Shown: positions 186 to 55,977 of the stretch, piece after piece
Layout of the letters: every line of letters starts with the position of its first letter
Numbering within the stretch: position 1 is the first letter of the stretch
Source: Candidatus Harrisonbacteria bacterium RIFCSPLOWO2_01_FULL_44_18
GTDB lineage: Bacteria > Patescibacteriota > Minisyncoccia > UBA6257 > WO2-44-18
Assembly (NCBI GenBank): GCA_001817915.1
Contig: MHJJ01000014.1
Location: 3,695 to 67,694 of the forward strand
DNA: 64,000 nt
Direction of reading: 5' to 3'
The notes under the pieces: model-generated
What the model was told of the DNA's origin: nothing
What the model saw: the letters and a program-made list of their open reading frames with translations, nothing else
Database searches by the model: none
Position numbers and translations under genes: made by a program

Positions 186-1337
186 TTATTTTTTGATAAT
201 TTCATTGAATAGTTTTAGAGTTTGGCGCGCCGTGTTCGGCCAATTAAATTTTTGAACATTCCGCAAGCCGGCTTCCTGAAGTCTTTTTTTGAGAGCGGGG
301 TTATCTAAAATTTTTTTAACGGCTTCCGTTAATTCTTCAACCCGCCAGGGGTCTATTAAAATAGCCGATTGACCCAAGATTTCCGGAAGGGAAGCGCGAT
401 CGGCCGCGATTACCGGACAGCCACAGGCCTGAGCTTCAAGCGGCGGGAAGCCGAATCCTTCAAAAAAAGAAGGATAGATAAACACCTCAGCTAAATTATA
501 TAGCAAAACTCGATCTTCGCCGGAAACCGGACCAAAAAGCGCGATATCTTTACCGTAAGACGATTTGCCGATTTCGTTGGCGATGTTTTGATAAAGCCAA
601 CCCGGCCGGCCGGCCAAAATAAGTTTTAAATCTTTGAAACGCGGATTGCTTTTTAGGGCGTTAAAAGCGCGAATGATAGCCGGGATATTTTTTCTCGGTT
701 CCAATGTGCCTAAATATAAAATAAAAGGCGAATCTAGCTTGTGTTTGCCGCGAAAATCTTTTAGGCGCCGATCATCAGCCGACATTTTTTTAAATTGATC
801 ATCAACGCCCGAATAGATGACCGAAATTTTTTCTTCGGGTACGGCCAGCAAGTTTACGAGGTCTGATTTTGTAAATTCGGAAACAGCGATTATTTTTGCC
901 GCTTCCTGGGCTTGCTTTTTGTAATTCTGGAGCCAATGCCAAAATTTTTGTTTTTGGGAAAAGAAATACGGATGGCGCAAAAAAGAAAGATCGTGGAAGG
1001 TAATGACGCGGGGCGTTTCCGTCTTGGCCAATATGTTAAAATGCGGGCTAAAAATTAAATCGGCCTCGATAAAACGATCAAGTTTAGGCCAGGAAAGAAA
1101 GCGGCTTGAAACTTCAAAAATTTTATTCGGAATTTTCCAATCGATAATTTTTAGAGATTGGTAATTGGTAATTGGTAATTGGTAATTTAACGGTTGCTTA
1201 CGTAGGCCGCTGTAAAACAAAAAATAGCGATTAGCCGAATCAACGGCCAAAAGCGTTTTTAATAAATTACGGGCGTATTCTTCAATCCCAGAAAGACCCC
1301 CGCGCGTTAATACCCGCGCGTCAAAGATTATTTTCAT
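186..1337 (-). CDS. glycosyltransferase family 1 (GT4-like)
   Basis: 383-aa ORF. C-terminal EGFGFPPLEAQACGCPVIA motif typical of GT1 glycosyltransferases. Carries an in-frame tandem repeat at 1158-1188. Confidence 0.8.
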   Translation of the reverse strand: MKIIFDARVLTRGGLSGIEEYARNLLKTLLAVDSANRYFLFYSGLRKQPLNYQLPITNYQSLKIIDWKIPNKIFEVSSRFLSWPKLDRFIEADLIFSPHFNILAKTETPRVITFHDLSFLRHPYFFSQKQKFWHWLQNYKKQAQEAAKIIAVSEFTKSDLVNLLAVPEEKISVIYSGVDDQFKKMSADDRRLKDFRGKHKLDSPFILYLGTLEPRKNIPAIIRAFNALKSNPRFKDLKLILAGRPGWLYQNIANEIGKSSYGKDIALFGPVSGEDRVLLYNLAEVFIYPSFFEGFGFPPLEAQACGCPVIAADRASLPEILGQSAILIDPWRVEELTEAVKKILDNPALKKRLQEAGLRNVQKFNWPNTARQTLKLFNEIIKK

Positions 1338-5971: not shown

Positions 5972-7420
5972 ATGGATTTAATGGAAAAAATAGTTAATTT
6001 GTGCAAGCGTCGGGGTTTTATTTTTCCCGGCTCGGAAATTTACGGCGGTCTTGCCAACTCTTGGGATTACGGCCCACTTGGAGTTGAATTAAAAAATAAT
6101 ATCAAAAATGAATGGTGGAAAAGATTTGTGCGTCAGCGGACCGATATTGTCGGCATTGACGCCGCTTTAATGATGAATCCGAAAGTATGGGAAGCAAGCG
6201 GCCATCTCAAAGAATTTTCTGATCCGTTGGTGGAGTGCAAGAGTTGCCATAAGAGATTTAGGGTTGATGAATATGGAGACGAAGGAATGAAGGCGAAAAA
6301 AGAAAACCTTCCTGGTTTTTCTAACAAATCTCACCTTCTTAGTGTTAGAAGCAAAAATGATATTGCTTGTAAAAATTGTGGTTTAAAAGGAACACTTACT
6401 GATTTTCGTATGTTTAATTTAATGTTTAAAACTTTCCTCGGTCCTTCGGAAGACAGCGCCAGCGTCGTATATCTGCGTCCGGAAACGGCGCAGGCGATGT
6501 TTGTGGATTTTAAGCAGGTTTTGGAAACTGTCCGCAAGCGCGTGCCTTTCGGCATAGCTCAAGTCGGCAAAGCGTTTCGCAATGAGATAACGCCCGGCAA
6601 TTTTATTTTCCGTACGCGGGAATTTGAGCAAATGGAAATAGAATATTTTATCCGTCCGCCAGCCGGCGAAGAGTGGAAAAAGTATTTTGATATGTGGCTG
6701 GAAGAGATGAAAAATTGGTTAGTAAATTTAGGTGTTGATTTGAAGAAAATCCATTTTCGGGAAATCCCCGAGGAAGAACGAGCCCATTATTCAAAGCGCA
6801 CCGTGGACATTGACTATGAATTTCCGTTTGGCCAAAGCGAACTTTATGGTTTGGCGTATCGCGGCGATTTTGATTTGAAGAATCATATGGAAAAAAGCGG
6901 TCAGGATTTGCGATATACCGACCCGGATACCGGCGAAAAATTTGTGCCGCATGTTATTGAGCCGACTTGGGGAGTAGATAGATCAGTTTTAGTCGCGATG
7001 CTTGAGGCGTATCGCGAAGAGATAGTCGCGGACTCACGCGGACTGGACGCAGACTCGCGCGGAAAGAGAAGTAATGAGGAAGAAACGCGGGTAGTTATGA
7101 AGTTTCCGAAATGGCTCGCGCCGATAAAAGTCGCGATACTTCCGTTGTCCAAAAAGGAAGAGTTAATAAAAATCGCCAAGCCGCTATACGAACAGTTGGC
7201 TAAAAAATTCGTTTGCGAATATGACGAAACGCAGAGTATCGGCAGACGTTATCGCCGCCAAGACGAAATCGGCACGCCCTATTGCGTTACCGTTGATTTT
7301 GAAACAATAAATGATAAAGCGGTAACTATTCGCGATCGCGATACCATGAAACAGGAAAGAGTCGAGATTTCCGCTCTATCTAAAGTCTTAGAACAATCTA
7401 TTGGTTTCGGGAATCAATAG
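5972..7420 (+). CDS. glyQS: glycine--tRNA ligase (dimeric alpha2 type)
   Basis: N-terminal RRGFIFPGSEIYGGLANSWDYGPLG is diagnostic of class II GlyRS. Contains a 10-mer tandem insert at 7027-7063. Confidence 0.9.
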   Translation: MDLMEKIVNLCKRRGFIFPGSEIYGGLANSWDYGPLGVELKNNIKNEWWKRFVRQRTDIVGIDAALMMNPKVWEASGHLKEFSDPLVECKSCHKRFRVDEYGDEGMKAKKENLPGFSNKSHLLSVRSKNDIACKNCGLKGTLTDFRMFNLMFKTFLGPSEDSASVVYLRPETAQAMFVDFKQVLETVRKRVPFGIAQVGKAFRNEITPGNFIFRTREFEQMEIEYFIRPPAGEEWKKYFDMWLEEMKNWLVNLGVDLKKIHFREIPEEERAHYSKRTVDIDYEFPFGQSELYGLAYRGDFDLKNHMEKSGQDLRYTDPDTGEKFVPHVIEPTWGVDRSVLVAMLEAYREEIVADSRGLDADSRGKRSNEEETRVVMKFPKWLAPIKVAILPLSKKEELIKIAKPLYEQLAKKFVCEYDETQSIGRRYRRQDEIGTPYCVTVDFETINDKAVTIRDRDTMKQERVEISALSKVLEQSIGFGNQ

Positions 7421-9848: not shown

Positions 9849-11344
9849 AAAAGTTTTATATTACCACTTCCATTGTTTATGTAAACGCGCCTCCGCATGT
9901 CGGTTTCGCGTTAGAATCCATTCAGGCGGATGTGTTAGCTCGGTATCATCGCCAAAAAGGCGATGAGGTTTTTTTTCTGACCGGCGCGGACGAGCATGGC
10001 GCTAAAATTGCGAGAGCCGCCGAGGCAGTCGGTAAAGATTTTCAGTTATTTGTTGACGAAATTGCCGCGAAAGTTAAAAAACTTAAAGACGTCCTGAATT
10101 TATCCTGGGACGATTTTATAAGGACCACTGATAAAAAACGCCATTGGCCCGGCGCTCAAAAATTATGGCGCGACATGGCCGCGGCCGGAGATCTTTATCG
10201 TAGAAAATATCGCGGCCTATATTGCGTTGGACACGAGGCGTTTGTTACCGAAAAAGATTTAATTGACGGCAAATGCCGAGATCATCAGAAGGAGCCGGAA
10301 GTTATTGAAGAGGAAAACTGGTTTTTTCGGTTATCAAAATATCAAAAGAAAATAGAATCAAGCATCAAGAAAAATAAATTAAGAATAATTCCGGAAGGGC
10401 GAAGAACGGAGGTTTTGTCTTTCATTAAAGAAGGCTTGGAGGATGTCAGCTTTTCTCGGCCGCGAAAAGATTTGTCTTGGGGTATCTCCGTGCCGGATGA
10501 CGAAACTAGCACGATGTATGTTTGGTGCGACGCTTTGGCGAATTATATTTCCGCCATCGGCTATGGCCAACAAAAAAGTTCTCCGCCGAAGGCGGATCCG
10601 CCTCAGGCGGAAAAGTTCACGAAATGGTGGCCTGCCGACATTCATTTAATTGGAAAAGATATTTTAAGATTTCACGCTTTGCTTTGGCCGGCGATGCTTC
10701 TTTCGGCAAAATTGCCGCTTCCTAAAAATATCTTTGTTCATGGGCATTTAACCGTTGATGGGCAAAAAATGTCCAAGAGCGTCGGCAATGTAGTAGATCC
10801 ATTTGAATTAGTCGCGAAGTATGGCATTGATCCGGCGCGCTATTATCTTTTGCGTGAGATTCCCAGCGGAGAAGACGGCGATTTTAGCTATAAAAAGCTT
10901 AAAGAAAGATACAACGGCGATTTAGCTAATGGCCTTGGGAATTTTGCCGCGCGCGTTTTAACTTTGGCGGAGAAATTGGGGGAGATAAAAGTTGATTTAA
11001 AAAGCGATGTTGATAAAGCAGTGGCTAAAAAAATCAAGGCGGTTCAAAAGAAAGTTGATGAAAAAATCACCGAATTCAAACTGCACGAGGCTTTAGCGGA
11101 AATTTGGGATTTGATCGCTTTTGGGGATAAATATGTTAATGAGAAAAAACCGTGGAACGCGTCGCTTAGCGTGAATGAAAAAGCGCGAACCATTTTTAAT
11201 TTAATCGCGATCTTGGATAATGTGGCGGCAATGCTATCGCCGTTTTTGCCGGAAACTTCTAAAAAAATTACCGAGAGCATTCATTGGTTATCAAAAAATA
11301 CTTTGAAAATTAAAAAATCCGCGATGCTTTTTCCGCGGATTTAA
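9845..11344 (+). CDS. metG: methionine--tRNA ligase (short form)
   Basis: HIGH-like PHVGFA and KMSKS (GQKMSKSVGNVVDP) motifs. N-terminal TSIVYVNAPPHVG block. Confidence 0.9.
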   Translation: MKKFYITTSIVYVNAPPHVGFALESIQADVLARYHRQKGDEVFFLTGADEHGAKIARAAEAVGKDFQLFVDEIAAKVKKLKDVLNLSWDDFIRTTDKKRHWPGAQKLWRDMAAAGDLYRRKYRGLYCVGHEAFVTEKDLIDGKCRDHQKEPEVIEEENWFFRLSKYQKKIESSIKKNKLRIIPEGRRTEVLSFIKEGLEDVSFSRPRKDLSWGISVPDDETSTMYVWCDALANYISAIGYGQQKSSPPKADPPQAEKFTKWWPADIHLIGKDILRFHALLWPAMLLSAKLPLPKNIFVHGHLTVDGQKMSKSVGNVVDPFELVAKYGIDPARYYLLREIPSGEDGDFSYKKLKERYNGDLANGLGNFAARVLTLAEKLGEIKVDLKSDVDKAVAKKIKAVQKKVDEKITEFKLHEALAEIWDLIAFGDKYVNEKKPWNASLSVNEKARTIFNLIAILDNVAAMLSPFLPETSKKITESIHWLSKNTLKIKKSAMLFPRI

Positions 11345-11345
11345 T

Positions 11346-11370
11346 CTATTGCTTCCGGGAAGCAATAGAT
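11346..11370. terminator. bidirectional terminator hairpin between convergent metG and the HAD gene
   Basis: ctattgcttccgggaagcaatag perfect hairpin. A second hairpin, aatccgcg...cgcggatt, overlaps the metG 3' end. Confidence 0.45.
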
Positions 11371-12129: not shown

Positions 12130-13155
12130 ATGATACTTATTGATTCTCATACCCATATCCAATTTCCGGTTTATGATAATGATCGGGAGGCGGTTATTGA
12201 ACGCGCGAGAAACGCGGGGGTTTACCCCCACACCAAACGAGCATTGGCGTTAGAAGAAAATGATGCTCGTTATGGTGTGGGGGTAAAAATGATTTGCGTC
12301 GGCACTCAAGCATCAACTTCTGAATCGGCAATTAAGCTCGCGGAAAAATATCCAGAGGATGTTTGGGCGACAATCGGCTACCATCCCAATCATGTTGTGC
12401 CAGCGCAACATGCGCAGACTTTGCGGACTGGACGCAGACTTGCGCAGACAAATTGGTATCATGATCAGAAGGAGCAGAAATCGGCAAATCCGCCGCGATT
12501 TAATATTGAAGAACTGCGCAGGCTTGCTCAGCATCCGAAAGTCGTGGCGATCGGGGAGTGCGGTTTGGATTACTACCGACTAGCCGCTAGCGATTTGCCA
12601 CTAGCCACTAGGGTTAAAGAAAAACAGAAAGAAATTTTTTTGCAGCAAGTCGAACTTGCGCAGGAATTAAATAAAGCATTGATGATCCATTGCCGGCCAT
12701 CCAAAGGCACCAACGACGCCTACGAAGATTTGCTGAAGATTTTACAGGAGATTAAATTTTCTCAGAATGTAATTATTCATTTTTATGTTGGTTCTGTTGA
12801 AATGGCACGAAAATTTTTAGATGCCGGATTTTACCCCCACACCAAACGAGCATTATCGGGGGGCGTCAATGGCGCGAATGCTCGTTATGGTGCGGGGGTT
12901 TATTTTACCTTCGGTGGCGTGATTACATTTTCACGCGACTATGACGAAATTATAAAATACATTCCTCTGGATCGAATTCTTCTGGAAACCGACGCGCCCT
13001 ATGTCGCGCCGGAACCGTATCGCGGCCGCCGCAACGAACCGGCATACATCGTGGAAACCGCTAAAAAACTAGCGGAAGTTAAAAATGTAAGCTTTGAAAA
13101 AGTGGCTGAAATAACTACCAAAACTGCTGGACAGATTTTTAAGTTGCCATTATAA
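12130..13155 (+). CDS. tatD: TatD-family metal-dependent DNase with in-frame repeat insertions
   Basis: Begins LIDSHTHI and carries the GECGLDYY and ETDAPY motifs. It is about 80 aa longer than typical TatD because of three in-frame repeat insertions. Confidence 0.8.
   Translation: MILIDSHTHIQFPVYDNDREAVIERARNAGVYPHTKRALALEENDARYGVGVKMICVGTQASTSESAIKLAEKYPEDVWATIGYHPNHVVPAQHAQTLRTGRRLAQTNWYHDQKEQKSANPPRFNIEELRRLAQHPKVVAIGECGLDYYRLAASDLPLATRVKEKQKEIFLQQVELAQELNKALMIHCRPSKGTNDAYEDLLKILQEIKFSQNVIIHFYVGSVEMARKFLDAGFYPHTKRALSGGVNGANARYGAGVYFTFGGVITFSRDYDEIIKYIPLDRILLETDAPYVAPEPYRGRRNEPAYIVETAKKLAEVKNVSFEKVAEITTKTAGQIFKLPL
12221..12287. mobile_element. palindromic miniature element (CCCCACACCAAACGAG family), copy 1, inside tatD in-frame
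   Basis: TIRs tttacccccacaccaaacgagcat / atgctcgttatggtgtgggggtaaa. No stop codon; translated as VYPHTKRALALEENDARYGVGVK. Confidence 0.7.
12829..12906. mobile_element. palindromic miniature element, copy 2, inside tatD in-frame
   Basis: ttttacccccacaccaaacgagcat...atgctcgttatggtgcgggggtttatttt; translated as FYPHTKRALSGGVNGANARYGAGVYF. Confidence 0.7.
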
Positions 13156-14832: not shown

Positions 14833-17385
14833 ATGCTGAAGTATAATTTTCGTAAAATAGAAAAAAAGTGGCAAGCCGTCTGGAAGCGCAATAAGTATAA
14901 GGTCTGGCGCGCCGCGGATTTTTCTAAAAATCAAAACCCAAAAGCTAAAAGCTATGTATTGGATATGTTTCCCTATCCCTCCGGCGAAGGACTGCATGTC
15001 GGCCATGTTGAGGGTTATACCGCTTCGGATATCTACGCGCGTTTTTTAAGAATGAACGGCCGTAATGTTTTGCATCCGATGGGATGGGACGCCTTTGGTT
15101 TACCTGCGGAAAATTACGCGATTAAGACAAAAACTCATCCCAGCTTGGTGGTAAAAAAGAATGTAAGGCGATTTAAAGCCCAATTAGACAGCTTGGGATT
15201 CAGCTACGATTGGCAAAGAGAAATTAATACCACCGACCCCGGATATTATAAATGGACGCAGTGGATTTTTCTGCAGATGTTCAAAAACGGCCTTGCTTAT
15301 GAAGCAGAGATGCCGGTTAATTGGTGTCCCTCTTGTAAAACCGTATTAGCCAATGAAGAGGTGATTGACGGCCATTGCGAACGTTGTGACAGCCTCGCAG
15401 AAAGAAAAAGTTTGAAACAATGGATTTTAAAAATTACCGATTACGCCGAGCGTCTGCTGAAGGATCTAGACGGGTTGGATTGGCCGGAGCGAGTAAAAGA
15501 AATGCAAAGAAATTGGATTGGCCGGTCAGAGGGGGTGATCATTAAGTTTCAAGTTTCAAGTTTAAAGTTTCCAATCGAAGTTTTTACGACTCGGCCGGAT
15601 ACTTTGGCCGGCGCCACTTATCTGGTTTTAGCGCCGGAACATCCGCTTATCAAAGACTTACAGCGCAAAATTAGGAATCCTAACGAGGTGACGCGTTATG
15701 TTGAGCAGGCGAGCCATAAATCAGAGCGCGAGCGACTGGCGGAAGTAAAAGAGAAAACCGGAGTCGAGCTTAAGGGCATTAAAGCCGTTAATCCTTTGAC
15801 CAACGAACAAATTCCGATTTGGGTCGCTGATTATGTTTTGGTCCATTATGGCACGGGCGCGATTATGGCAGTGCCGGCCCATGATCAAAGAGACTTTGAA
15901 TTTGCTCAGAAATTTGAGTTGCCGATAAAGATTGTTATTTGCCCGAATTATCCGGAACCCGTTTGCCCGATTTTAGAAAAAGCTTATGAAGGCGATGGAT
16001 ATTTGGTTGGTTCGGGCGAATTTGACGGCCTGCCTAATAACGAAGCTAAAAAAACGATTCTTGAATCGTTGATAAAAAAAGACTTGGCGAAAAAGACTGT
16101 TAATTACAAATTGCGGGATTGGGTTTTTTCCCGTCAGCGTTATTGGGGCGAGCCGATACCTTTGGTTTTTTGTAAAAATTGTAAAAAACAAGTGGAGAAT
16201 TTTAAATCTCAAAACCAAAATTATTCTTTTGATAAATTTAGTTTGGGAGAATTGTTAAATCCCGGTTGGACGGTCATTCCTGATTCAGAATTACCGGTCA
16301 AGTTGCCCAATGTTAAAAATTATCAGCCAACCGGCAAGGCCGAGTCGCCTTTGGCTGGCATTGAAAAATGGACCAAGACGAGTTGTCCCAGATGCGGCGG
16401 GTTAGCTACGCGAGAAACTAATACTATGCCGCAATGGGCGGGGTCTAATTGGTATTATTTGCGATATTTAGATCCCAAGAATAAAGAAGAATTAGTTGAT
16501 CACGACAAAGAAAAATACTGGATGGGAGTGGACTTATACATCGGTGGCGTAGAGCACGCGGTGTTGCATTTGTTGTACGCCCGCTTTTGGCATAAGTTTT
16601 TGTATGATATCGGCATAGTTTCCACCAAAGAACCTTTTGGCAAATTAATTAATCAAGGTTTAATTTTGGGGCCGGATGGCCAGAAAATGTCAAAATCGCG
16701 CGGCAATGTGGCAAATCCCGACGAAATAGTTTCTAAATTTGGCGCGGATTCTTTGCGGCTTTATGAAATGTTTATGGGGCCGTTGGAGGAGGCAAAACCG
16801 TGGGATTCCCGCGGGATCGTGGGAATGCACCGTTTTTTACAAAGAACGTGGAAGTTATTCACGAAACCGGGAATTGAAAAAAATCCGCGTAAATCTGCTT
16901 CTACCGACGCAGAATCCGCGTCAATCCGCGTAGCGAAGCTGTTACACAAAACTATCAAGAAAGTTACCGAAGATGTCAAAAATTTCCGGTTTAATACCGC
17001 TATCAGCGCGCTGATGATTTTAGTTAACGAAATGGAAAAGAATCCTCAATTACTAATTACTAATTACCAATTACTAATAAAATTGTTGTTTCCTTTCGCG
17101 CCGCATTTAGCTCAAGAACTTTGGCAAAAACTAGGAAATAAGAGTTTATTGGATTACGAGCCTTGGCCGGTCTGGGATGAAAAATTAATCCAAGAAGAAG
17201 AGTTTGAGTTAATTATTCAAATCAACGGCAAAATGCGGGGTAAAATTATGACTCAAAAGGGAATTGTCGAAGAAGACGCGAAAAAACTTGCATTCAGCCA
17301 AAATGTTATTAAGAAATGGATCGGCGGCAAAAAAATCAAAAAAACTATTTTCGTGAAAGATAGGTTGATAAATTTTATTGTTTGA
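14833..17385 (+). CDS. leuS: leucine--tRNA ligase
   Basis: HVGH motif (PYPSGEGLHVGHVEGY) and KMSKS (QKMSKSRGNV). Start set at the ATG at 14833, directly after a TATAAT, so the mRNA may be leaderless. Carries several in-frame repeats. Confidence 0.9.
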   Translation: MLKYNFRKIEKKWQAVWKRNKYKVWRAADFSKNQNPKAKSYVLDMFPYPSGEGLHVGHVEGYTASDIYARFLRMNGRNVLHPMGWDAFGLPAENYAIKTKTHPSLVVKKNVRRFKAQLDSLGFSYDWQREINTTDPGYYKWTQWIFLQMFKNGLAYEAEMPVNWCPSCKTVLANEEVIDGHCERCDSLAERKSLKQWILKITDYAERLLKDLDGLDWPERVKEMQRNWIGRSEGVIIKFQVSSLKFPIEVFTTRPDTLAGATYLVLAPEHPLIKDLQRKIRNPNEVTRYVEQASHKSERERLAEVKEKTGVELKGIKAVNPLTNEQIPIWVADYVLVHYGTGAIMAVPAHDQRDFEFAQKFELPIKIVICPNYPEPVCPILEKAYEGDGYLVGSGEFDGLPNNEAKKTILESLIKKDLAKKTVNYKLRDWVFSRQRYWGEPIPLVFCKNCKKQVENFKSQNQNYSFDKFSLGELLNPGWTVIPDSELPVKLPNVKNYQPTGKAESPLAGIEKWTKTSCPRCGGLATRETNTMPQWAGSNWYYLRYLDPKNKEELVDHDKEKYWMGVDLYIGGVEHAVLHLLYARFWHKFLYDIGIVSTKEPFGKLINQGLILGPDGQKMSKSRGNVANPDEIVSKFGADSLRLYEMFMGPLEEAKPWDSRGIVGMHRFLQRTWKLFTKPGIEKNPRKSASTDAESASIRVAKLLHKTIKKVTEDVKNFRFNTAISALMILVNEMEKNPQLLITNYQLLIKLLFPFAPHLAQELWQKLGNKSLLDYEPWPVWDEKLIQEEEFELIIQINGKMRGKIMTQKGIVEEDAKKLAFSQNVIKKWIGGKKIKKTIFVKDRLINFIV

Positions 17386-26754: not shown

Positions 26755-29373
26755 ATGATTACCAAAGAAACTTTGCGAAAATCTTTTTGGGCTTTGCCGG
26801 TTCACGAGGCGCTTGACGCGCTTGAAACTACTGCCAGCGGGTTGATGCGGGATGAAGCAGAAGAGCGTCTTAGGGTTTTCGGGAAAAACGTTTTAGCCAA
26901 AAGGATAAGAATAACTAAATTAAAAATTCTTGTCAGGCAGTTCGGAAGCCCGCTGATTTTTCTTTTGTTAATTGCCGGCGGCGTTACTTTGTTTTTGAAG
27001 GATTTTAAGGATGCCGGATTTATTCTTGCCGCCGCTTTAATAAACGCGATTTTGGGATTTTATCAAGAAAGCAAAGCCGAGACGGCGTTGGCGCATTTAA
27101 GAACTTACATCAGAGAACGCAATCGCGTATTTAGAGATAATCACGAGATAGAAGTTGATTCCAGCGAATTAGCGCCGGGAGACGTCATCCATTTATCTCA
27201 AGGGGATCGGATACCCGCGGACTGCCGATTAATTTATGTCAACGATTTTGCCGTTGATCAAGCGATTTTAACCGGCGAATCCCTGCCGGTTTCTAAAGAT
27301 ATCAAGCCCGCCAGTTTTCAGGCAGTCCTCGCGGATCAGAATTCAATGGTCTTTAGCGGCACGGTGGCGGTACAGGGGTTTGCCAATGCCGTTGTTTCCG
27401 CTACCGGCAAATACACCGAATTGGGGAAAATCGCCGCTCTAGTCGCGAGGCCGGAAAAGGAACGCACTCCTCTTCGCGAGGCAATAAATAAATTCAGTAT
27501 TAAGGCCAGCATTATTTTGATCGGATTAACGGCCCTGATTTTTTCGCTCGGCGTTTTGACGGGAAGTTCATTGCTGGATATGTTTTTGATTTCGGTGGCG
27601 ATCGTAGTTTCGGCGATACCGGAAGGATTGCCAATCGCGATGACCGTCATTTTGGCGGTAGGCGTGCAAAGATTGGCGTGGAAAAAAGGAATTGTCCGCA
27701 AATTGCTCGCGGCGGAAACAATGGGCAGCACCTCGGTAATTTTGACTGATAAGACCGGCACCTTGACTGAAGCCAAGATGGAACTTTCGGAAATAAAAGT
27801 TTATAAGGAGGACCGCGCGGAAGAGCGGAAAGAAACGATATTAAAACTCGCCATCCTTAATAGCGACGTGGTGATAGAAAATCCCGGCGATTCGCCTTTT
27901 GACTGGGAAATTATTGGCCGGCCGCTGGAGGTGGCGATTGTCAGATCGGCGGCCAAATTTGATATTTTGGCGCCGGATGTTCGTAAGAAAATGAAAGCCG
28001 TCGATTATCTTCCATTTAGTTCCGTAAATAAATTTTCGGCAAACGTTATTCAGCAAGGTTCGAAATATTTACTTAGCGTGTTCGGCGCGCCGGAAATTTT
28101 ATTAAAATTTTCTAATTTGCCCGATAATTCGCGCCGCCAAATTCATAGAGATGTCGACAAGGTCGCCTATGGCGGCGCGAGAGTTTTAGCAGTCGCGACA
28201 AAAGAATTATCGGGCATTGAAGGAGTTTCGCTTCGCCAGAAAGAAATTTTTAAAGATTTGGATTTTTTGGGAACAATGTCTTTTAGGGACCCGATTCGCA
28301 AAGAAGTCAGAGACGCGGTTAATCGGGTCGCTCAAGCCGGTGTCCGCACTTTAATTGTCACGGGAGATCATCGCGGCACCGCGGAGTTTGTAGCTAAAGA
28401 AGTCGGCATTTCTATTGATGGCGATAGTGTCATTGACGGCGCTGAACTTGACGCGCTGAACGATGAAGATCTTAAAAATAGACTTCCGAATTTAAGGATT
28501 GTTTCGCGGGTAAGTCCGGAAGGAAAATTGAGGATAGTTAAAGCGCTTCAGGGGATAGGGGAGATTGTGGCAATGACCGGCGACGGCGTGAATGACGCCC
28601 CAAGTTTAAAGGAAGCTGATATCGGCGTTAGCATGGGTTCGGGCACCGATGTTGCTAAAGATGTATCGGATTTAGTTTTGCTTGACGATAATTTTGAAAC
28701 CATCGTGGAAGCCGTGGCTGAGGGCCGAAGGATTATACAAAATATCAGAAAAGTAATCGTTTATCTGCTTTCAAATGCTTTGGACGGATTGATTTTAATT
28801 GGCGGGTCCTTGCTTATCGGCTTGAGCTTGCCGTTGAACGCGCTGCAGATTCTTTGGGTTAATTTTTTTACCGATAGTTTTCCGGCAATCGCCTTGGCTT
28901 TTGAAAAAAAGATTGACCATTGGGTTGATCGTCCCGCGCCAATCCATAAAGGATTGCTTGACTCGGAAATGAGATTTTTGATTCAAGTGATCGGAGCGCT
29001 CACGAGTGTTTTGCTTTTGGTTTTATACGTTGGCTTGCTTTATTTGGGTATTGAAGAAAAATTGGTTCACACTTTTATCTTTGCCGCCTTTGGGACATAC
29101 AGTTTGTTTTTGGTTTTCGCGGTTCGAAGTTTGAGACGGAGTATTTTCACTTATAATCCTTTTTCAAACCCCGCGCTTTTGGGAAGCGTGATTTTAGGAT
29201 TGGGATTAATGGCGATCGCGATTTACGTTCCTTTTCTCCAAAAATTATTCGGCACCATGCCCTTGCCGTTAAACTGGCTCTGGGGCATCGTGGGTTTGGG
29301 AATTTTGAATGTCTTCGCGATTGAGTTTGGAAAGTGGGTTTTTAGAAAAAAACAACTAACAACTAACAACTAA
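26755..29373 (+). CDS. cation-transporting P-type ATPase (P2-type, Ca2+/Mg2+-like)
   Basis: DKTGTLT phosphorylation motif, TGDGVNDAPSLK, TGES and about 10 TM helices. The C-terminus and stop codon run into a heptamer tandem repeat. Confidence 0.9.
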   Translation: MITKETLRKSFWALPVHEALDALETTASGLMRDEAEERLRVFGKNVLAKRIRITKLKILVRQFGSPLIFLLLIAGGVTLFLKDFKDAGFILAAALINAILGFYQESKAETALAHLRTYIRERNRVFRDNHEIEVDSSELAPGDVIHLSQGDRIPADCRLIYVNDFAVDQAILTGESLPVSKDIKPASFQAVLADQNSMVFSGTVAVQGFANAVVSATGKYTELGKIAALVARPEKERTPLREAINKFSIKASIILIGLTALIFSLGVLTGSSLLDMFLISVAIVVSAIPEGLPIAMTVILAVGVQRLAWKKGIVRKLLAAETMGSTSVILTDKTGTLTEAKMELSEIKVYKEDRAEERKETILKLAILNSDVVIENPGDSPFDWEIIGRPLEVAIVRSAAKFDILAPDVRKKMKAVDYLPFSSVNKFSANVIQQGSKYLLSVFGAPEILLKFSNLPDNSRRQIHRDVDKVAYGGARVLAVATKELSGIEGVSLRQKEIFKDLDFLGTMSFRDPIRKEVRDAVNRVAQAGVRTLIVTGDHRGTAEFVAKEVGISIDGDSVIDGAELDALNDEDLKNRLPNLRIVSRVSPEGKLRIVKALQGIGEIVAMTGDGVNDAPSLKEADIGVSMGSGTDVAKDVSDLVLLDDNFETIVEAVAEGRRIIQNIRKVIVYLLSNALDGLILIGGSLLIGLSLPLNALQILWVNFFTDSFPAIALAFEKKIDHWVDRPAPIHKGLLDSEMRFLIQVIGALTSVLLLVLYVGLLYLGIEEKLVHTFIFAAFGTYSLFLVFAVRSLRRSIFTYNPFSNPALLGSVILGLGLMAIAIYVPFLQKLFGTMPLPLNWLWGIVGLGILNVFAIEFGKWVFRKKQLTTNN

Positions 29374-29457
29374 CAACTAACAACTAACAACTAACAACTA
29401 ACAACTAACAACTAACAACTAACAACTAACAACTAACAACTAACAACTAACAACTAA
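29351..29457. repeat. tandem heptamer (CAACTAA) x about 15
   Basis: aacaactaacaactaac... perfect copies covering the ATPase stop codon and the 3' end of convergent comF. Confidence 0.9.
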
Positions 29458-31470: not shown

Positions 31471-31612
31471 CGAAGTAATCGCGAACAACGCGAATCTATG
31501 CAAAATAATGCTAATAATTTATTCGCGTTATTTCGAATCAGATTAGCATTATTCGCGATTACTCCGATTCGTGTTATTTTGAAACAAATTAGCATTATTC
31601 GCGATTACTCCG
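31471..31612 (+). repeat. 145-bp structured intercistronic element, copy 1 (pilM stop to pilN start)
   Basis: cgaagtaatcgcgaacaacgcgaa...aatgctaataatttattcgcgttatttcgaatcagattagcattattcgcgattactccgATG, with several internal inverted repeats. Near-identical copies lie at 34958-35108 and 36183-36331. Confidence 0.85.
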
Positions 31613-32146
31613 ATGAATCAAAATCTTGTTGATAAATTTGAAACGGAAAGATTGCCGACCGGGTGGCCATGGCGGTTATTTTTGTTCAGTTTTTTGCTTT
31701 TCGCGGCGACGGTCGTCAGTTATTTTGGTTTGTCATTGGGCTATAAGCCGTTTTTAAACAGGCAAATTGCCGGAAAGGAAGCGGAAGTTAATCAATTGGC
31801 GGCGGCCGTTCCCGAAGCCGAGCAGGAAAATTTTATTAGATTTTATTCTCAATTGGCGAATTTGGAGAAAGTCTTAAACAACCATGTTGTTTCTTCCGCC
31901 CTCTTTCCATTTTTAGAAAGAAATACCAACGTCCAGATATATTACAATATCTTGGATTTCAGCGCTTCGGAGAAGAGATTGACTTTGGATGGCGTTGCTC
32001 AAAACTACGATATTTTAGCGCAGCAGCTCGAGGCTTTCACTCAAGCTAAAGAGGTTGAGCGGTTTTTAATCAATGAATCGCAATTAAGCGAAGGAAAAAT
32101 AAGATTTCGGGTATCGCTATTTTTAGCGCCGCAAGTATTGAGATAA
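31613..32146 (+). CDS. pilN: type IV pilus assembly protein PilN-like
   Basis: Single N-terminal TM, then a coiled-coil periplasmic domain. Position after pilM. Confidence 0.6.
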   Translation: MNQNLVDKFETERLPTGWPWRLFLFSFLLFAATVVSYFGLSLGYKPFLNRQIAGKEAEVNQLAAAVPEAEQENFIRFYSQLANLEKVLNNHVVSSALFPFLERNTNVQIYYNILDFSASEKRLTLDGVAQNYDILAQQLEAFTQAKEVERFLINESQLSEGKIRFRVSLFLAPQVLR

Positions 32147-34957: not shown

Positions 34958-35108
34958 TATAATTAACGAAGTAATCGCGAACAACGCGAACCTATGCAAA
35001 ATAATGCTAATAATTTATTCGCGTTATTTCGAATCAAATTAGCATTATTCACGATTACTCCGATTCGTGTTATTTTGAAACAAATTAGCATTATTCGCGA
35101 TTACTCCG
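34958..35108 (+). repeat. 145-bp structured intercistronic element, copy 2 (pilB stop to pilT start)
   Basis: About 95 % identical to copy 1. Confidence 0.85.
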
Positions 35109-36182
35109 ATGGACGATTACAAACAAAAACTAGATGAATTACTGTTGACTACGGCGAAACAGAACGCTTCGGATCTTCATTTGGCCGTCGGTCGCCGTCC
35201 GACTTTAAGGATTGACGGCGCTTTAGTGCCTTTGCAAAAAGAGACGATATTAACTCCCGAGTCAGCCGAGGGTTTGATCAGCGCCTTTTTAACGCCGGAG
35301 CAAAAGGAAGAATTTCTAAAAAATAAGGAGCACGATCTTTCCTATTCTTTTGAAGACAAAGCCCGGTTTCGCGTCAATGTTTTTTATCAGCGGGGATTTA
35401 TGGCCGCCGCTTTGCGCTTGATACCGGCTCAAATAAGGACAGTCGAAGAACTTAATTTGCCGCCAGTCTTGCACGATTTTACCCGTCTTTCTCAAGGTTT
35501 TGTTTTACTTGTCGGTCCGGCCGGCCACGGCAAATCTACAACGATGGCCGCGCTGGCGGATGAAATCAATCATCAGCGCACCGCTCATATCATTAGCATT
35601 GAAGATCCCATTGAGTATTTATTTTCTCAAGATCGGAGCATTATTTCTCAAAGAGAGGTGAGAAATGATACGCCGGATTTTCACAAAGCGCTCCGTTCTG
35701 TTTTAAGACAAGACCCGGATGTGGTGATAATCGGCGAAATGCGCGACCCGGAGTCAATCTCAACGGCGCTGACGGCCGCCGAAACCGGCCACTTGGTTTT
35801 TTCAACGCTTCATACCAATTCCGCCTCCCAAACGATAGATAGAATTATTGATAGTTTTCCGCCCGCCCAACAGAGCCAGATTACATCTCAATTATCCGCC
35901 ACATTAGTCGGCATTGTTTCTCAACGTTTAATTCCGCGGGTTGACGGCGGCCGTATGCCGGCTTGCGAAGTAATGCTCGTTAATTCGGCGATCAGAAATT
36001 TGATCCGCGAGAGAAAGGCGTATCAAATTGATTTGGTGATTGAAACCAGCATGCAGGAAGGAATGTTAACTCTTAACCGTTCTTTAATCGGTTTGGTGAA
36101 AAAGAGGCAGATTTCAATTGAAAACGCGGAGCTTTATTCATTGAACCCGAGCGAGTTGAGGATATTATTGGAGAGAACATAA
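35109..36182 (+). CDS. pilT: twitching motility ATPase PilT
   Basis: Walker A GPAGHGKSTTMAA; PilT-type retraction ATPase blocks. Confidence 0.9.
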   Translation: MDDYKQKLDELLLTTAKQNASDLHLAVGRRPTLRIDGALVPLQKETILTPESAEGLISAFLTPEQKEEFLKNKEHDLSYSFEDKARFRVNVFYQRGFMAAALRLIPAQIRTVEELNLPPVLHDFTRLSQGFVLLVGPAGHGKSTTMAALADEINHQRTAHIISIEDPIEYLFSQDRSIISQREVRNDTPDFHKALRSVLRQDPDVVIIGEMRDPESISTALTAAETGHLVFSTLHTNSASQTIDRIIDSFPPAQQSQITSQLSATLVGIVSQRLIPRVDGGRMPACEVMLVNSAIRNLIRERKAYQIDLVIETSMQEGMLTLNRSLIGLVKKRQISIENAELYSLNPSELRILLERT

Positions 36183-40387: not shown

Positions 40388-40444
40388 TATAAGCAGAAAT
40401 ACGCGGATTTATGCAAAAATTAGAAGCGGATACACGCAGAAAAT

Positions 40445-47378: not shown

Positions 47379-47386
47379 TTTTTGCT

Positions 47387-51728: not shown

Positions 51729-53078
51729 CTATTTTTTAATTTGTTTTACAATTTTTTTGAATTTTCTTCCGCGATCTTTATAATCTTTGAACATGTCAAA
51801 ACTGGCGGCGCCGGGAGAAAAGACGATAGTAACTGGCAATCGGTAATCGGCAATTAGAGACTTCGCAGTTTTATATGCAATTTTAATAGCAGATTCTAAA
51901 TTGCCGCCTTTTCTAATTACTATTTTCTGGTTACTAATTACTGAGGCTATTTTATTTTTATTTTCGCCAAAAAGCATAACAGCTTTGACATTGCAGGCTT
52001 TTTTAATGGCATCGGCAAGAGGTTTATAATTGAGATTTTTATCTTTTCCGCCGGCAATCAAAATGGTTAATTGGTTTGTTGATTGGCTGGTTATTTGGTT
52101 ATTAGAAAAGGAAAGAACGGCGGCGGCGGAAGTTTGCGGATTGGTGCTCGCGGAATCATTGTAAAAATCTATTCTAGAATTCATTCCAACGTTCTTAAGA
52201 ACGTTGGAATGAATTTTTATACCGCGGACGAATTCCAGCCGATGCTCTATTCCTTTAAATTCCGCGATTGTTTTATCAATGATATGGTCGGGACAGTCCA
52301 GATTTTGGGCGATTGCTTTTGCCATCGCGGCGTTTTTTTGATTATGATCGCCCGGGATTTGCAGACCGGGTAGGCCAATGTTTTCCGGAGAAACGGGGAT
52401 TTTTCGAGCAGGCGATTGATCGGCAATCCATTTTGAAAACTTGTTATCAGAGGAATAAAATATCTTATCTTGTTTTGAATTCTGAAAACGGCCGATGTTA
52501 GCTTTGGCATTAATATATTCTTTGAAATTTTTGTGACTATCTAGGTGATCGGGGAAAATATCTAAAATCGCCGCCAATCGCGGAGATTTCGCGAGGTCTT
52601 GGAGTTGAAAACTAGAGAGTTCCAGAATAACCATTGTTCGAGAATCAATTTTTGGCAATATTTCCAGCGCCGACTTGCCGATATTTCCAGCCAAGGCCGC
52701 CTTAAATCCGGAGTTTTTGAGAATTTGATAAAGCAATGTGGCAGTTGTGCCCTTCCCCTTGGTGCCCGTTATTCCGATGACGATTTGTCCGTGATGTCCG
52801 TGTTCAGTCCGCGTGGTTCCGTGAAGTTGTTCAAAGAACAACTTAGTGGCGCTGGAGAAACGAATCCCTTTTTTGATGGCGCGCTGAATCTGCGGTAAAT
52901 TGTACGGCACTCCCGGCGAGCGAAAAACAACATCAAACTTGTCGAGATTTTTTAAATAATTTTTGTCCCGTTTTTGATCCAGAATTTCAATTTTTGCTCC
53001 GCCATAAATCGGCGAGCGTTTCAAGAATTTGAGCGTTGATTTTCCTTCTATTCCAAAGCCCAGAATCGCGATCTTCAT
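51729..53078 (-). CDS. murD: UDP-N-acetylmuramoylalanine--D-glutamate ligase
   Basis: N-terminal Rossmann MKIAILGFGIEG and Mur-ligase P-loop GITGTKGKGTT. Contains an in-frame 30-bp palindrome at 52183-52213. Confidence 0.85.
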   Translation of the reverse strand: MKIAILGFGIEGKSTLKFLKRSPIYGGAKIEILDQKRDKNYLKNLDKFDVVFRSPGVPYNLPQIQRAIKKGIRFSSATKLFFEQLHGTTRTEHGHHGQIVIGITGTKGKGTTATLLYQILKNSGFKAALAGNIGKSALEILPKIDSRTMVILELSSFQLQDLAKSPRLAAILDIFPDHLDSHKNFKEYINAKANIGRFQNSKQDKIFYSSDNKFSKWIADQSPARKIPVSPENIGLPGLQIPGDHNQKNAAMAKAIAQNLDCPDHIIDKTIAEFKGIEHRLEFVRGIKIHSNVLKNVGMNSRIDFYNDSASTNPQTSAAAVLSFSNNQITSQSTNQLTILIAGGKDKNLNYKPLADAIKKACNVKAVMLFGENKNKIASVISNQKIVIRKGGNLESAIKIAYKTAKSLIADYRLPVTIVFSPGAASFDMFKDYKDRGRKFKKIVKQIKK

Positions 53079-54831: not shown

Positions 54832-55977
54832 ATGGATATTCAAGATTTACGACATTCTTTTCATCACGAGATCAAAGGCGTTAAAGACGCAAAAACCCTT
54901 GAGGGGTTTAGAATAAAGTATTTAGGGCGCAAAGACGGCGAGCTTACTAAAATTTTGCGTTCACTGAAAGATTTGCCGTTGGCAAAAAAGAGAAAAATTG
55001 GTCCTGCCGCCAATAATTTGCGAAAGGAAATCGAAGTCGCTTTAGAAGCAAAACTTAAGGAGCTACAAACTACAAACTACAAACTACAAACTAGAATTGA
55101 TGTTACTATGCCCGGCAAAAAGATTCCGGTCGGGCATCTTCACCCGCTGACTTTGATGGAAAATAGAATTCGGGAAATTTTCCGCGGTTTGAATTTTTCC
55201 GTTGTTGAAGGCCCGGAGATAGAAACCGAACATTATAATTTTGACGCTTTAAATATTCCGGCTAATCATCCAGCTAGGGATATGTGGGACACCTTTTGGT
55301 TAAAACTTTCTGCCAACGGCGGAAAGTTCGCCCAACCAGATTTGCGAAGCAAATCTGGTTTAGGGCTAAAAACGCAGACTAACGCAGAAAAAATTCCGCG
55401 TGAGTCCGCGTCAAGTCCGCGTGTGTCTGCGCTGTTAAGAACTCACACCAGTCCGATGCAGATTCGTTATATGGAAACGCATCGGCCGCCGTTTCAGATA
55501 ATTGTGCCCGGACGAGTATTTCGTTATGAGGCTACTGACGCTTCCCACGAAATCAATTTTCATCAAGTTGAGGGTTTGATGGTCGGAGAAAATATCAATC
55601 TGGCTAATTTTAAATATATTATTGAGGAATTTTTCCGCCAGCTTTTCGGCGCCGGCACGCATATCCGTTTTCGCCCAAGTTATTTTCCGTTTGTCGAACC
55701 CGGTTTGGAAATAGACATTCTCCTTGACAGGAGCGCAGAAGAACGCGGACTATACGCAGACCAACGTGGAAAAAGTCTGCGTGAATCCGCGTGGTTGGAG
55801 GTGATGGGCGCGGGAATGGTGCATCCCAATGTTTTTCGAGCCGTTGGTTATGATTCCAGAAAGGTCCAGGGTTTTGCTTTCGGTTTGGGCATAGAAAGGC
55901 TGGCGATGATTAAATATAAGATCCCCGATATACGATTGTTCTACTCGGGAGACCTGCGTTTCATTAACCAGTTTTGA
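54832..55977 (+). CDS. pheS: phenylalanine--tRNA ligase alpha subunit
   Basis: Class II motifs RPSYFPFVEPG and GAGMVHPNV. Contains in-frame repeats at 55063-55094, 55394-55434 and 55743-55794. Confidence 0.9.
   Translation: MDIQDLRHSFHHEIKGVKDAKTLEGFRIKYLGRKDGELTKILRSLKDLPLAKKRKIGPAANNLRKEIEVALEAKLKELQTTNYKLQTRIDVTMPGKKIPVGHLHPLTLMENRIREIFRGLNFSVVEGPEIETEHYNFDALNIPANHPARDMWDTFWLKLSANGGKFAQPDLRSKSGLGLKTQTNAEKIPRESASSPRVSALLRTHTSPMQIRYMETHRPPFQIIVPGRVFRYEATDASHEINFHQVEGLMVGENINLANFKYIIEEFFRQLFGAGTHIRFRPSYFPFVEPGLEIDILLDRSAEERGLYADQRGKSLRESAWLEVMGAGMVHPNVFRAVGYDSRKVQGFAFGLGIERLAMIKYKIPDIRLFYSGDLRFINQF

What the first reader, a model, noticed from the sequence alone, without database searches (positions are those of the whole stretch)
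7027..7063. Family of about 40-bp GC-rich 10-mer tandem inserts (RCGCRGACTN x4) embedded in-frame in several essential genes
Related repeats occur in both orientations in:
- glyQS: cgcggactca cgcggactgg acgcagactc gcgcggaaag (7027-7063)
- tatD: 12411-12449
- leuS: 16881-16935
- pheS: 55394-55434 and 55743-55794

Each adds a short Arg/Ala/Asp/Ser-rich loop (for example ADSRGLDADSRGKRS). They are more GC-rich than their host genes. Together with the other in-frame repeats, this suggests a genome-wide class of coding mini-insertions tolerated in aminoacyl-tRNA synthetases.
Basis: seen in the sequence. Interest (0 to 1): 0.65.

Follow-up and report, generated by a model that had tools for sequence, protein, structure and literature searches.

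The report
Four-unit repeat module inside essential genes
The GC-rich 10-mer x4 stretch in glyQS is a real copy of an abundant, fixed-architecture 37-bp DNA repeat found across ultra-small CPR/Patescibacteria genomes, which sits in frame in variable-length loops of many unrelated essential proteins (and between genes), much like the 'selfish' palindromic elements of Rickettsia.

Summary
All five reported sites exist, and I found a decayed sixth in murD and a weak intergenic one. Clusters occur 6 times against 0.18 expected.

The window comes from Candidatus Harrisonbacteria RIFCSPLOWO2_01_FULL_44_18. The insert-bearing proteins recur identically in independent assemblies, so this is not an assembly artefact.

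The repeat is not a variable tandem array. It is a fixed module of exactly four CGCRGA cores spaced 10-11-10 bp:
- consensus CGCRGACTnACGCRGACTnnACGCRGACTnACGCRGA
- found solo, or as a head-to-head pair (38 '+-' against 0 '-+')
- no conserved flanks

The exact module was found only in low-GC contigs, most labelled Patescibacteria, at an estimated 100-200 copies per Mb. About 63% lie in long ORFs and 37% outside.

It is read in all three frames and both orientations, so DNA is conserved, not peptide. Most orthologues lack the inserts. They fall in variable-length loops that other lineages fill with other repeat families.

Best reading: a non-autonomous dispersed DNA element, analogous to RPEs, filtered by selection for frame, loop position and a weaker mRNA hairpin. 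Its mobilising or binding factor is unknown. The link to aminoacyl-tRNA synthetases is a sampling effect.

The parts
7027..7063 (+). Solo four-unit module in glyQS (CGCGGA-CGCGGA-CGCAGA-CGCGGA, spacing 10-11-10). It encodes VADSRGLDADSRGK and makes the loop 10 aa longer than the family baseline.
   Evidence: nhmmer E=5e-9
12413..12449 (+). Solo module in tatD; one core is mutated to TGCGGA. It encodes AQTLRTGRRLAQT. It is a clean 16-aa (48-bp) insertion relative to the syntenic relative L130.
   Evidence: E=8e-5
16884..16932 (-). Degenerate module in leuS, with cores mostly on the minus strand (ACGCGGATT variant) and one inverted core. It encodes NPRKSASTDAESASIRV. The LeuRS of L129 and L130 share it.
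52787..52823 (-). Decayed module on the sense strand of murD. Three of its four cores are CACGGA. It encodes HGTTRTEHGHHG, about 11 aa absent from PDB MurD 3lk7.
55372..55433 (.). Composite (head-to-head) element in pheS loop 1: 2 forward plus 4 reverse cores. It encodes TQTNAEKIPRESASSPRVSA. A separate palindrome is inserted just upstream, at 55325-55368.
   Evidence: z=-2.65; E=6e-10
55734..55791 (.). Composite element in pheS loop 2: 4 forward plus 2 reverse cores. It encodes SAEERGLYADQRGKSLRESA. The PheS of L128 carries the same element with 21 bp (two units) more.
   Evidence: z=-4.07; E=2e-8
40388..40441 (+). Weak, degenerate module-like array in the spacer just upstream of a pilin-like gene. 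It is the only candidate non-coding copy in the window.
   Evidence: (E=0.45)

Best explanation
The glyQS repeat is one copy of a dispersed, non-autonomous DNA repeat family found in low-GC contigs, most labelled Patescibacteria (CPR).

What is shown:
- The basic element is a fixed 37-bp module of four CGCRGA(CT) iterons spaced 10-11-10 bp.
- It occurs alone, or as a head-to-head pair with unit 1 outward and a loop of 3-38 nt.
- Copies are created at the DNA level rather than by local slippage. The same module, with unrelated flanks, sits in many unrelated genes and spacers, in both orientations and all three frames.

What is inferred:
- Copies persist in coding DNA only where selection allows. 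Length must be a multiple of three, there must be no stop codon, and the site must be a loop that tolerates extra length.
- For composite copies, the orientation that puts the weaker, A.C-mismatched hairpin in the mRNA is favoured.
- The encoded peptide is a by-product and probably close to neutral for the host enzyme.
- The spread mechanism is unknown. The leading candidates are trans-mobilisation by an unidentified enzyme that recognises the iterons, or recombinational copy-paste.
- Near-invariance of five of the six core positions across contigs spanning 24-55% GC and several labelled Patescibacteria lineages implies a conserved trans-acting factor.
For: - Fixed architecture: spacing 10-11-10 recurs in many genomes. 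In an unbiased test, unit 1 is present in 120 of 127 cases, a unit 0 in 2 and a fifth unit in 8.
- Polarity: adjacent pairs are '+-' 38 times and '-+' 0 times. Inverted cores occur within 25 nt downstream in 16 cases and upstream in 1.
- Abundance and spread: 254 modules in 790 kb of metagenome loci. The exact module is in 14 low-GC loci, most labelled Patescibacteria, and in no high-GC locus. None is in the viral contigs matched.
- No conserved peptide: three sense frames and antisense readings are all used.
- Lineage-specific insertions in variable-length loops:
  - GlyRS, PheS, LeuRS, TatD and MurD.
  - The same PheS and GlyRS loops hold other repeat families in other lineages.
  - The AF2 model gives low confidence for the PheS inserts.
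- Frame filter: core-to-core length mod 3 is 2 in 19 of 27 composites inside ORFs. For 24 composites outside ORFs the three residue classes number 10, 8 and 6.
- Hairpin-strand bias inside ORFs: 30 against 4 by unit count. The sense RNA fold is weaker in 28 against 11 cases, Wilcoxon p=0.0014.
- Some copies decay (murD, tatD), as expected for non-essential DNA.
- No transposase lies in the window or between inverted modules. That is consistent with a non-autonomous element.
Against: - No mobilising enzyme, target-site duplication or presence/absence polymorphism between close strains was found, so mobility is inferred rather than shown.
- Inserts shared with relatives keep their nucleotide sequence better than synonymous sites of the host gene: glyQS 12/12 identical codons against a 47% background; leuS 12/14; pheS 11/13. 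A purely neutral, selfish relic should not do that. It points to nucleotide-level selection, to homogenisation, or to repeated independent insertion.
- Solo modules have no hairpin potential (z=-0.3 and +1.6), unlike classical REP, RPE and MITE elements.
- Copies are only modestly over-represented outside ORFs (37% of copies against about 22% of bases).
Confidence: 0.6

Rival explanations
1. Host-functional iteron array. The four in-phase CGCRGA cores are one helical turn apart and would be the binding platform of a conserved CPR DNA-binding protein, for example a nucleoid, segregation or regulatory factor. Selection would maintain the arrays, and they would sit inside genes because these tiny genomes have almost no spacer DNA.
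For: - Spacing of 10-11-10 bp, about one helical turn, and a fixed copy number.
- Core positions are 92-100% conserved across contigs spanning 24-55% GC, while spacer bases vary.
- Synonymous sites inside shared inserts are more conserved than in the host gene.
- No transposase was found.
Against: - No protein partner is known.
- Copies are absent from most orthologues of each host gene, and positions differ between genomes.
- Clearly decayed copies exist (murD).
- Within this window the copies are clumped, at 7-17 kb and 52-56 kb, with only one weak candidate (40388-40441) in the 35 kb between.
- Density of an estimated 100-200 per Mb and frequent duplicate copies within a genome (L040) look like proliferation.
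Confidence: 0.2
2. Local replication slippage. Each array arose in place by tandem duplication of a 10-mer and behaves as a variable-number (contingency-type) repeat.
For: - Tandem Repeats Finder reports period-10 arrays.
- The orthologous pheS loop-2 elements of the window and L128 differ by 21 bp, which is two units.
Against: - Copy number is fixed at four.
- The same core sequence and 10-11-10 spacing occur at hundreds of unrelated loci and genomes.
- Spacer bases differ between units within an array.
- No length variants appear among independent assemblies or in the 90%-identity clusters.
Confidence: 0.03
3. Protein-level explanation. The stretches are selected peptide loops, or ancestral parts of these enzymes, and the DNA similarity is secondary.
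For: - The inserts are hydrophilic.
- Some are shared by two or three lineages, for example GlyRS P0139 and LeuRS P0284 and P0262.
Against: - The same DNA module is translated in three frames and on both strands into unrelated peptides.
- 37% of copies lie outside long ORFs.
- In glyQS the differences from the relative fall in spacer bases and change amino acids (S to L), while the cores are untouched.
- Most orthologues and all PDB homologues lack the inserts.
Confidence: 0.05
4. DNA-uptake-signal-like motif. CGCRGACT would be a self-recognition tag for the competence machinery of these naturally competent bacteria. It would accumulate genome-wide, including in tolerant coding positions.
For: - The window encodes a type IV pilus cluster and a ComFC-like protein.
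- From my own knowledge of Neisseria and Pasteurellaceae uptake sequences: known uptake signals also occur in coding DNA and as inverted pairs.
Against: - Single cores are not enriched in the window (115 observed against 124 expected). Only the four-unit module is.
- The fixed copy number, spacing and polarity are not features of known uptake sequences.
Confidence: 0.05
5. Assembly or sequencing artefact.
For: None beyond the repetitive nature of the sequence.
Against: - Identical insert-bearing proteins occur on 11-19 contigs from independent samples and assemblers and in two NCBI MAGs.
- Related copies are present in hundreds of independent contigs.
Confidence: 0.01

Closest known systems
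Rickettsia palindromic elements (RPE; Ogata et al. 2000 and 2002, as summarised in PMC10969869)
   Same: - A dispersed repeat family.
- Inserted in frame into many unrelated housekeeping genes of a reduced-genome bacterium, as well as into spacers.
- The insertions are compatible with protein fold and function.
- No transposase of its own.
   Different: - RPEs are about 100-150 bp and palindromic, and each family encodes one conserved peptide.
- This module is 37 bp (80-110 bp as a pair) and is built of four direct iterons.
- It is often not palindromic at all.
- It is read in all frames and both orientations.
- It was found in contigs labelled with several Patescibacteria lineages rather than one genus.
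- There is no sequence similarity to RPEs.
REP/BIME elements mobilised by RAYT (IS200/IS605-like Y1) transposases
   Same: - Short, abundant, GC-rich and non-autonomous.
- No target-site duplication.
- Pairs occur in a defined inverted arrangement.
- One strand folds better than the other.
   Different: - REPs are imperfect palindromes with a conserved GTAG/CTAC end and are almost exclusively extragenic.
- Here the unit is an array of direct iterons and most copies lie in ORFs.
- No such conserved terminal tetranucleotide appears in the consensus, and no RAYT gene was found in the window.
MITEs (for example Correia, ERIC, BOX)
   Same: - The composite form looks like two terminal inverted repeats joined by a short loop.
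- In-frame fusions of intragenic MITEs are known (PMC10969869).
   Different: - No target-site duplication was seen.
- No parental IS with the same ends was found.
- Solo half-elements are the commonest form.
Direct-repeat protein-binding arrays with helical periodicity (iterons, parC-type centromeres, OmpR/PhoB-type boxes); comparison from my own knowledge
   Same: Short direct repeats spaced 10-11 bp apart in a fixed small number.
   Different: Those arrays lie at origins, centromeres or promoters and have known binding proteins. These arrays are scattered at an estimated 100-200 per Mb, mostly inside genes, and no partner is known.

Membership tests
Rickettsia palindromic elements (RPE) | Dispersed repeat inserted in frame in many unrelated ORFs at positions the protein tolerates | tested here: met
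Rickettsia palindromic elements (RPE) | Element is a palindrome of about 100-150 bp | tested here: not met
   Solo modules are 37 bp and do not fold (z=-0.3 and +1.6). Only the composite forms are palindromic, at 60-110 bp.
Rickettsia palindromic elements (RPE) | Each family encodes one conserved peptide in a fixed frame | tested here: not met
   All three frames and both orientations are used.
REP/BIME-RAYT | Imperfect palindrome of 20-40 bp with a conserved terminal GTAG/CTAC | tested here: not met
   The consensus shows four direct cores and no such conserved terminal tetranucleotide.
REP/BIME-RAYT | Extragenic location | tested here: not met
   161 of 254 copies lie in stop-free frames of at least 120 aa. 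All strong copies in the window are in genes.
REP/BIME-RAYT | Cognate RAYT gene in the genome, usually flanked by REPs | tested here: inconclusive
   No Y1 transposase is in the 64-kb window. The rest of the genome was not examined.
MITE | Terminal inverted repeats | tested here: inconclusive
   Composite copies have inverted modules with fixed polarity (38 against 0). Most copies are solo modules.
MITE | Target-site duplication | tested here: not met
   The 15-nt flanks of 25 modules share no conserved sequence. The flanks of each copy were not compared with each other, apart from tatD, where no duplication is evident against L130.
MITE | Parental autonomous IS with the same ends | tested here: not met
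   ORFs lying between inverted modules 0.3-6 kb apart are MFS-like (weak hit, below Pfam's cut-off), DoxX or unannotated, not transposases. The sample was small.
Variable-number tandem repeat / contingency locus | Copy number varies between strains through slippage | tested here: not met
   Copy number is fixed at four. Independent assemblies and 90%-identity clusters show no length variants. Raw reads were not available.
DNA uptake sequence | A single short motif over-represented genome-wide | tested here: not met
   The core 6-mer count is 115 against 124 simulated.

The most novel reading that the evidence does not exclude
The four-iteron module is the recognition substrate of a conserved, still unidentified Patescibacteria protein. 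That protein could be a new kind of trans-acting single-strand or hairpin recombinase that copies 37-bp half-sites, or a chromosome-organising factor whose binding arrays are kept under nucleotide-level selection inside essential genes.

Observations this would explain:
- fixed copy number and helical phasing
- strict head-to-head polarity
- A-type and G-type arm asymmetry
- cores conserved beyond synonymous expectation
Probability: 0.22. Interest if true: 0.85.

Novelty: new variant of a known kind. Interest (0 to 1): 0.62.

Why it matters
**Scale.** Patescibacteria are among the largest bacterial radiations and have tiny, gene-dense genomes. A repeat present at an estimated 100-200 copies per Mb, written into essential enzymes, would be a notable feature of their genome and protein evolution that I could not find described.

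**Practical consequences:**
- It inflates and diversifies loops of marker proteins used for phylogeny and annotation.
- It creates strong hairpins inside mRNAs.
- It marks loops in GlyRS, PheS, LeuRS, TatD and MurD that accept extra length.

**Testable lead.** The fixed four-iteron architecture, polarity and strand asymmetries point to a specific, still unknown protein. That gives a concrete handle for finding a new mobilisation or DNA-binding system in organisms that are now genetically tractable (Saccharibacteria).

Tried and rejected
- **Rfam.** Only tRNAs were found in the window, so the repeat is not a known RNA family.
- **Literature.** Six searches covered the core sequences, RPE, MITE or REP together with CPR, and in-frame repeats. 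None found a description of this family.
- **Transposon ends.** A Bacillota MAG (L028, L042, L075, L082, L099) has an intergenic repeat with the same core. I suspected transposon ends. The DNA between two copies encodes flagellar proteins as judged by eye from the translations (FlgK/FlgL-like), not a transposase. Its spacing by my reading is 10-10-10, so it is a different family.
- **Autonomous parent element.** I searched between inverted modules and found none.
- **Intrinsic terminator role.** Only 1 of 24 intergenic composites has a T-rich tail.
- **Phage origin.** No 10-11-10 module occurs in the IMG/VR matches.
- **Arm covariation.** I tested whether the R position covaries between arms to preserve pairing. 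It does the opposite: identical in 25 of 100 against 42 expected.
- **Phylogenetic placement of carriers.** P-distance and NJ analysis scatter carriers among non-carriers, but the tree is star-like. It cannot separate shared ancestry with losses from repeated insertion.
- **High-GC hits.** Matches in Streptomyces and Myxococcales in the genome scan look like chance or other tandem repeats.
Full report
**1. The observation**

Positions 7027-7063 read CGCGGACTCA CGCGGACTGG ACGCAGACTC GCGCGGA. Tandem Repeats Finder calls a period-10 array there, and related arrays at 12426-12449, 16913-16931 and 55395-55431.

The motif is far more frequent than chance allows:
- RCGCRGACT occurs 11 times against 1.21 expected, and no shuffle reaches 11.
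- Clusters of three or more CGCRGA/TCYGCG cores at about 10-bp spacing occur six times against 0.18 in Markov simulations.
- The core 6-mer itself is not enriched (115 against 124). The signal lies in the clustering.

I added two more:
- a decayed copy in murD at 52787-52823, with CACGGA variant cores
- a weak intergenic copy at 40388-40441

NCBIfam confirms the host genes as GlyRS, a TatD-family hydrolase, LeuRS, PheS and MurD. All reading frames stay open. The inserts are 55-73% GC against 40-45% for the rest of their genes.

**2. Source organism and the artefact question**

The exact PheS, GlyRS and TatD proteins belong to Candidatus Harrisonbacteria bacterium RIFCSPLOWO2_01_FULL_44_18. They are in two NCBI MAGs and on 11-15 contigs. 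The PheS gene is on 19 contigs from JGI and several ENA assemblies. Members of the 90%-identity clusters show no length change at the inserts. An assembly artefact is excluded. Read-level heterogeneity could not be examined.

**3. The inserts are lineage-specific and lie in variable-length loops**

- **GlyRS.** 68 of 120 closest homologues carry the baseline loop EEEAPTAEEGESETR. The query has EEIVADSRGLDADSRGKRSNEEETR. Only one homologue, P0139, has the same insert. A mycobacterial GlyRS structure has a gap there.
- **PheS.** The two sites are the two most length-variable loops of the family, with base states of about 17-22 aa and 20 aa.
  - Other lineages fill the same two loops with entirely different repeat families.
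  - Examples are the TNDxxQTTNNSR..VVSR type, the NQKSKIKN type, the ANGGKFAQPDLRSKSGLG type and a Zn-knuckle.
- **LeuRS.** The site is a loop of 36-64 aa. P0284 and P0262 share the insert.
- **TatD.** The syntenic relatives L129 and L130 lack the module. Against L130 it is a clean 16-aa (48-bp) insertion. Most TatD relatives are 255-300 aa against 341 here.
- **MurD.** About 11 extra residues relative to PDB 3lk7.
- **Structure.** An AlphaFold2 model of PheS gives pLDDT below 50 for residues 163-199 and about 55 for residues 300-320. Neighbouring conserved segments are also poorly modelled, so this is weak support.

**4. What the repeat really is**

*Architecture.* The array is not a variable tandem repeat. 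It is a fixed module of four cores with start-to-start spacing 10-11-10. The consensus is CGCRGACTnACGCRGACTnnACGCRGACTnACGCRGA(A/C), with unrelated flanks.

In an unbiased test I searched only for units 2-4 and then inspected the neighbours:
- Unit 1 sits at exactly -10 in 97 of 127 cases, and in 120 of 127 with at most one mismatch.
- A unit further upstream occurs in 2 cases.
- A fifth unit occurs in 8 cases.

*Distribution.*
- The exact module occurs in 14 of the 119 genome loci. All 14 are low-GC (0.33-0.49).
- Most of the 14 are labelled Saccharibacteria, Paceibacterota, Jorgensen-, Sungii- or Doudnabacteria, or simply 'bacterium'.
- No high-GC locus has it, and none of the 30 viral contigs matched does.
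- In 790 kb of metagenome loci an HMM of the module finds 254 copies. After removing the one copy per locus that selected it, I estimate roughly 170 per Mb. The window has about 100 per Mb.

**5. DNA is conserved, not peptide**

Of the 254 copies:
- 99 lie sense in long open frames
- 62 lie antisense in long open frames
- 93 (37%) lie in no long frame, against about 22% of bases in that class

All three sense frames are used: TNADxTQTNAE, ADxRGLxADxRG and RGLTQTxRGLTQ. Antisense readings include PRKSASSPRKSA. In the window the same DNA gives ADSRGLDADSRG (glyQS), AQTLRTGRRLAQT (tatD), NPRKSASTDAESASIRV (leuS) and TQTNAEKIPRESASSPRVSA (pheS). This rules out a selected peptide motif. It also shows there is no special tie to aminoacyl-tRNA synthetases.

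**6. Higher-order structure and asymmetries**

- **Polarity.** Adjacent modules are '+-' 38 times and '-+' never. The composite element is therefore [module>]-loop(3-38 nt)-[<module], with unit 1 outward. The two pheS copies are of this kind. They fold as DNA with z=-2.7 and -4.1, whereas the solo glyQS and murD modules do not fold (z=-0.3 and +1.6).
- **R position within a module.** It tends to be uniform: AAAA 32 against 10 expected, GGGG 19 against 6.
- **R position between arms.** It is anti-correlated: identical in 25 of 100 against 42 expected. One strand therefore folds with G.T wobbles and the other with A.C mismatches.
- **Strand bias inside ORFs.** The sense strand is the A.C strand 30 times against 4. 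The sense RNA fold is weaker in 28 of 39 unique elements, mean -31.8 against -36.6 kcal/mol, Wilcoxon p=0.0014.
- **Frame constraint.** Core-to-core length of composites inside ORFs is 3n+2 in 19 of 27. Outside ORFs the three residue classes number 10, 8 and 6.
- **Not terminators.** Intergenic composites lack T-tails (1 of 24).

**7. Age and constraint**

Several window inserts are shared with relatives whose host proteins are only 60-70% identical. Codon alignments show the insert is better conserved than synonymous sites of its gene:

| Comparison | Identical same-amino-acid codons in insert | Background | p |
|---|---|---|---|
| glyQS vs L126 | 12/12 | 47% | 1e-4 |
| leuS vs L129 | 12/14 | 50% | 0.006 |
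| pheS loop 1 vs L162 | 11/13 | 46% | 0.006 |
| pheS loop 1 vs L163 | 8/11 | 36% | 0.015 |
| four other comparisons | at or above background | | not significant |

- In glyQS the only differences are in spacer bases, and they change the amino acid.
- In pheS loop 2 the differences are mainly at the R positions, and the L128 copy is 21 bp (two units) longer.

There is an important caveat. Different repeat families hit the same loops in different lineages, so independent insertion of the same family at the same hot spot would mimic conservation. Distances place carriers among non-carriers, but the trees are star-like and cannot decide. Decayed copies in murD and tatD show that not every copy is maintained.

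**8. Mechanism**

*Shown:*
- a defined DNA module copied to many unrelated places
- filtered in coding DNA for frame, for position in a variable-length loop and for hairpin strand

*Inferred:* spread by a trans-acting factor that recognises the iterons.
- No transposase lies in the window.
- None lies between distant inverted modules either.
- No target-site duplication was seen.

Near-invariance of five core positions across contigs spanning 24-55% GC and several labelled Patescibacteria lineages argues for a conserved protein partner. That partner could be a mobilising enzyme or a binding protein with a host role. I put the selfish, non-autonomous-element reading at about 0.6 and the host-functional array at about 0.2. 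Slippage, peptide function, uptake signal and artefact are all low.

**9. Comparison with known systems**

- **RPEs** are the closest analogue: dispersed repeats inserted in frame into many housekeeping genes of a reduced genome (PMC10969869, citing Ogata et al. 2000 and 2002). This family fails two RPE-defining features, namely a long palindrome and one peptide per family. It is unrelated in sequence and was found in contigs labelled with several Patescibacteria lineages.
- **REP/BIME-RAYT and MITEs** share the non-autonomy and the inverted pairs. They do not share the direct-iteron architecture, the coding location, or (for MITEs) target duplications and a parental IS.
- **Literature.** Six searches found no description in CPR. 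The library is not exhaustive.

**10. Verdict**

It needs three corrections. The class is not specific to synthetases. It is not a slippage array. And it extends well beyond this genome. I rate it a new variant of a known kind, of above-average interest.

Noticed in passing
window 12220-12288, 12823-12900 (both in tatD) and 47385-47452 (intergenic): A second dispersed element: a long, near-perfect hairpin, (TTT)ACCCCCACACCAAACGAGC...loop...GCTCGTTATGGTGTGGGGGT(AAA). DNA fold z-scores are -9.9, -4.2 and -8.7. Two copies are in frame in TatD (YPHTKRAL...ARYGxGV) and are cleanly absent from the syntenic TatD of L129 and L130. One copy is intergenic and has compensatory changes in the inner stem. 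A near-identical TatD variant (P0127) differs only by 4 residues inside the second copy.
   Followed up: partly
window 55325-55368 (pheS loop 1): A third in-frame element: the palindrome CCAGATTTGC-GAA-GCAAATCTGG (z=-7.8), encoding ANGGKFAQPDLRSKSGLG. It sits next to the four-unit composite, where relatives L162 and L164 carry two further forward units. The same peptide type occurs alone in the PheS of P0031, P0048 and P0070.
   Followed up: partly
window 1157-1187, 15544-15571, 17048-17078, 50187-50221, 55063-55093, 56559-56589; also 29351-29457: Tandem heptamer arrays of 4-5 copies, mostly perfect (100% matches; two are 90-91%), lie in frame inside a GT4 glycosyltransferase, leuS (twice), gatA, pheS and pheT. 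They encode peptides such as SKIQNPKSKIQN and ITNYQLLI. Similar peptides fill variable loops of homologues in other CPR genomes. A 15-copy AACAACT array overlaps the 3' end of the P-type ATPase ORF and continues into the downstream spacer. Three heptamers make 21 bp, or 7 codons.
   Followed up: partly
window 60320-63553: The GyrB gene is 1077 aa and contains an intein (Pfam Intein_splicing, residues 454-878) between the GyrB domain and Toprim.
   Followed up: no
window 31521-31614 and 35017-35110: The same 46-bp unit occurs as two tandem copies at two places. Each lies just upstream of a gene in the type IV pilus cluster (an unannotated 177-aa ORF and the second T2SSE ATPase gene).
   Followed up: no
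window 11312-11346: The inverted repeat AAATCCGCG...CGCGGATTT overlaps the stop codon of metG. It shares the core hexamer, but it looks like an ordinary 3'-end hairpin rather than a module.
   Followed up: no
L028, L042, L075, L082, L099 (Bacillota bacterium MAG220): An intergenic repeat family, TTGAATGG-ACGCGGACT-n-ACGCGGACT-TTTTGGAC-TTCGCGGAC-TTTTT, has the same core but 10-10-10 spacing by my reading. It occurs in both orientations around what look by eye like flagellar genes. It seems to be a distinct family outside CPR.
   Followed up: partly
PheS homologues P0015, P0021, P0030, P0079 and others (loop 2): Many CPR PheS proteins carry a CxxC...CxxC Zn-knuckle of 32 or 39 aa in the same loop that holds repeat elements in other lineages. 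P0030 and P0076 appear to have extra sequence inside the knuckle.
   Followed up: no
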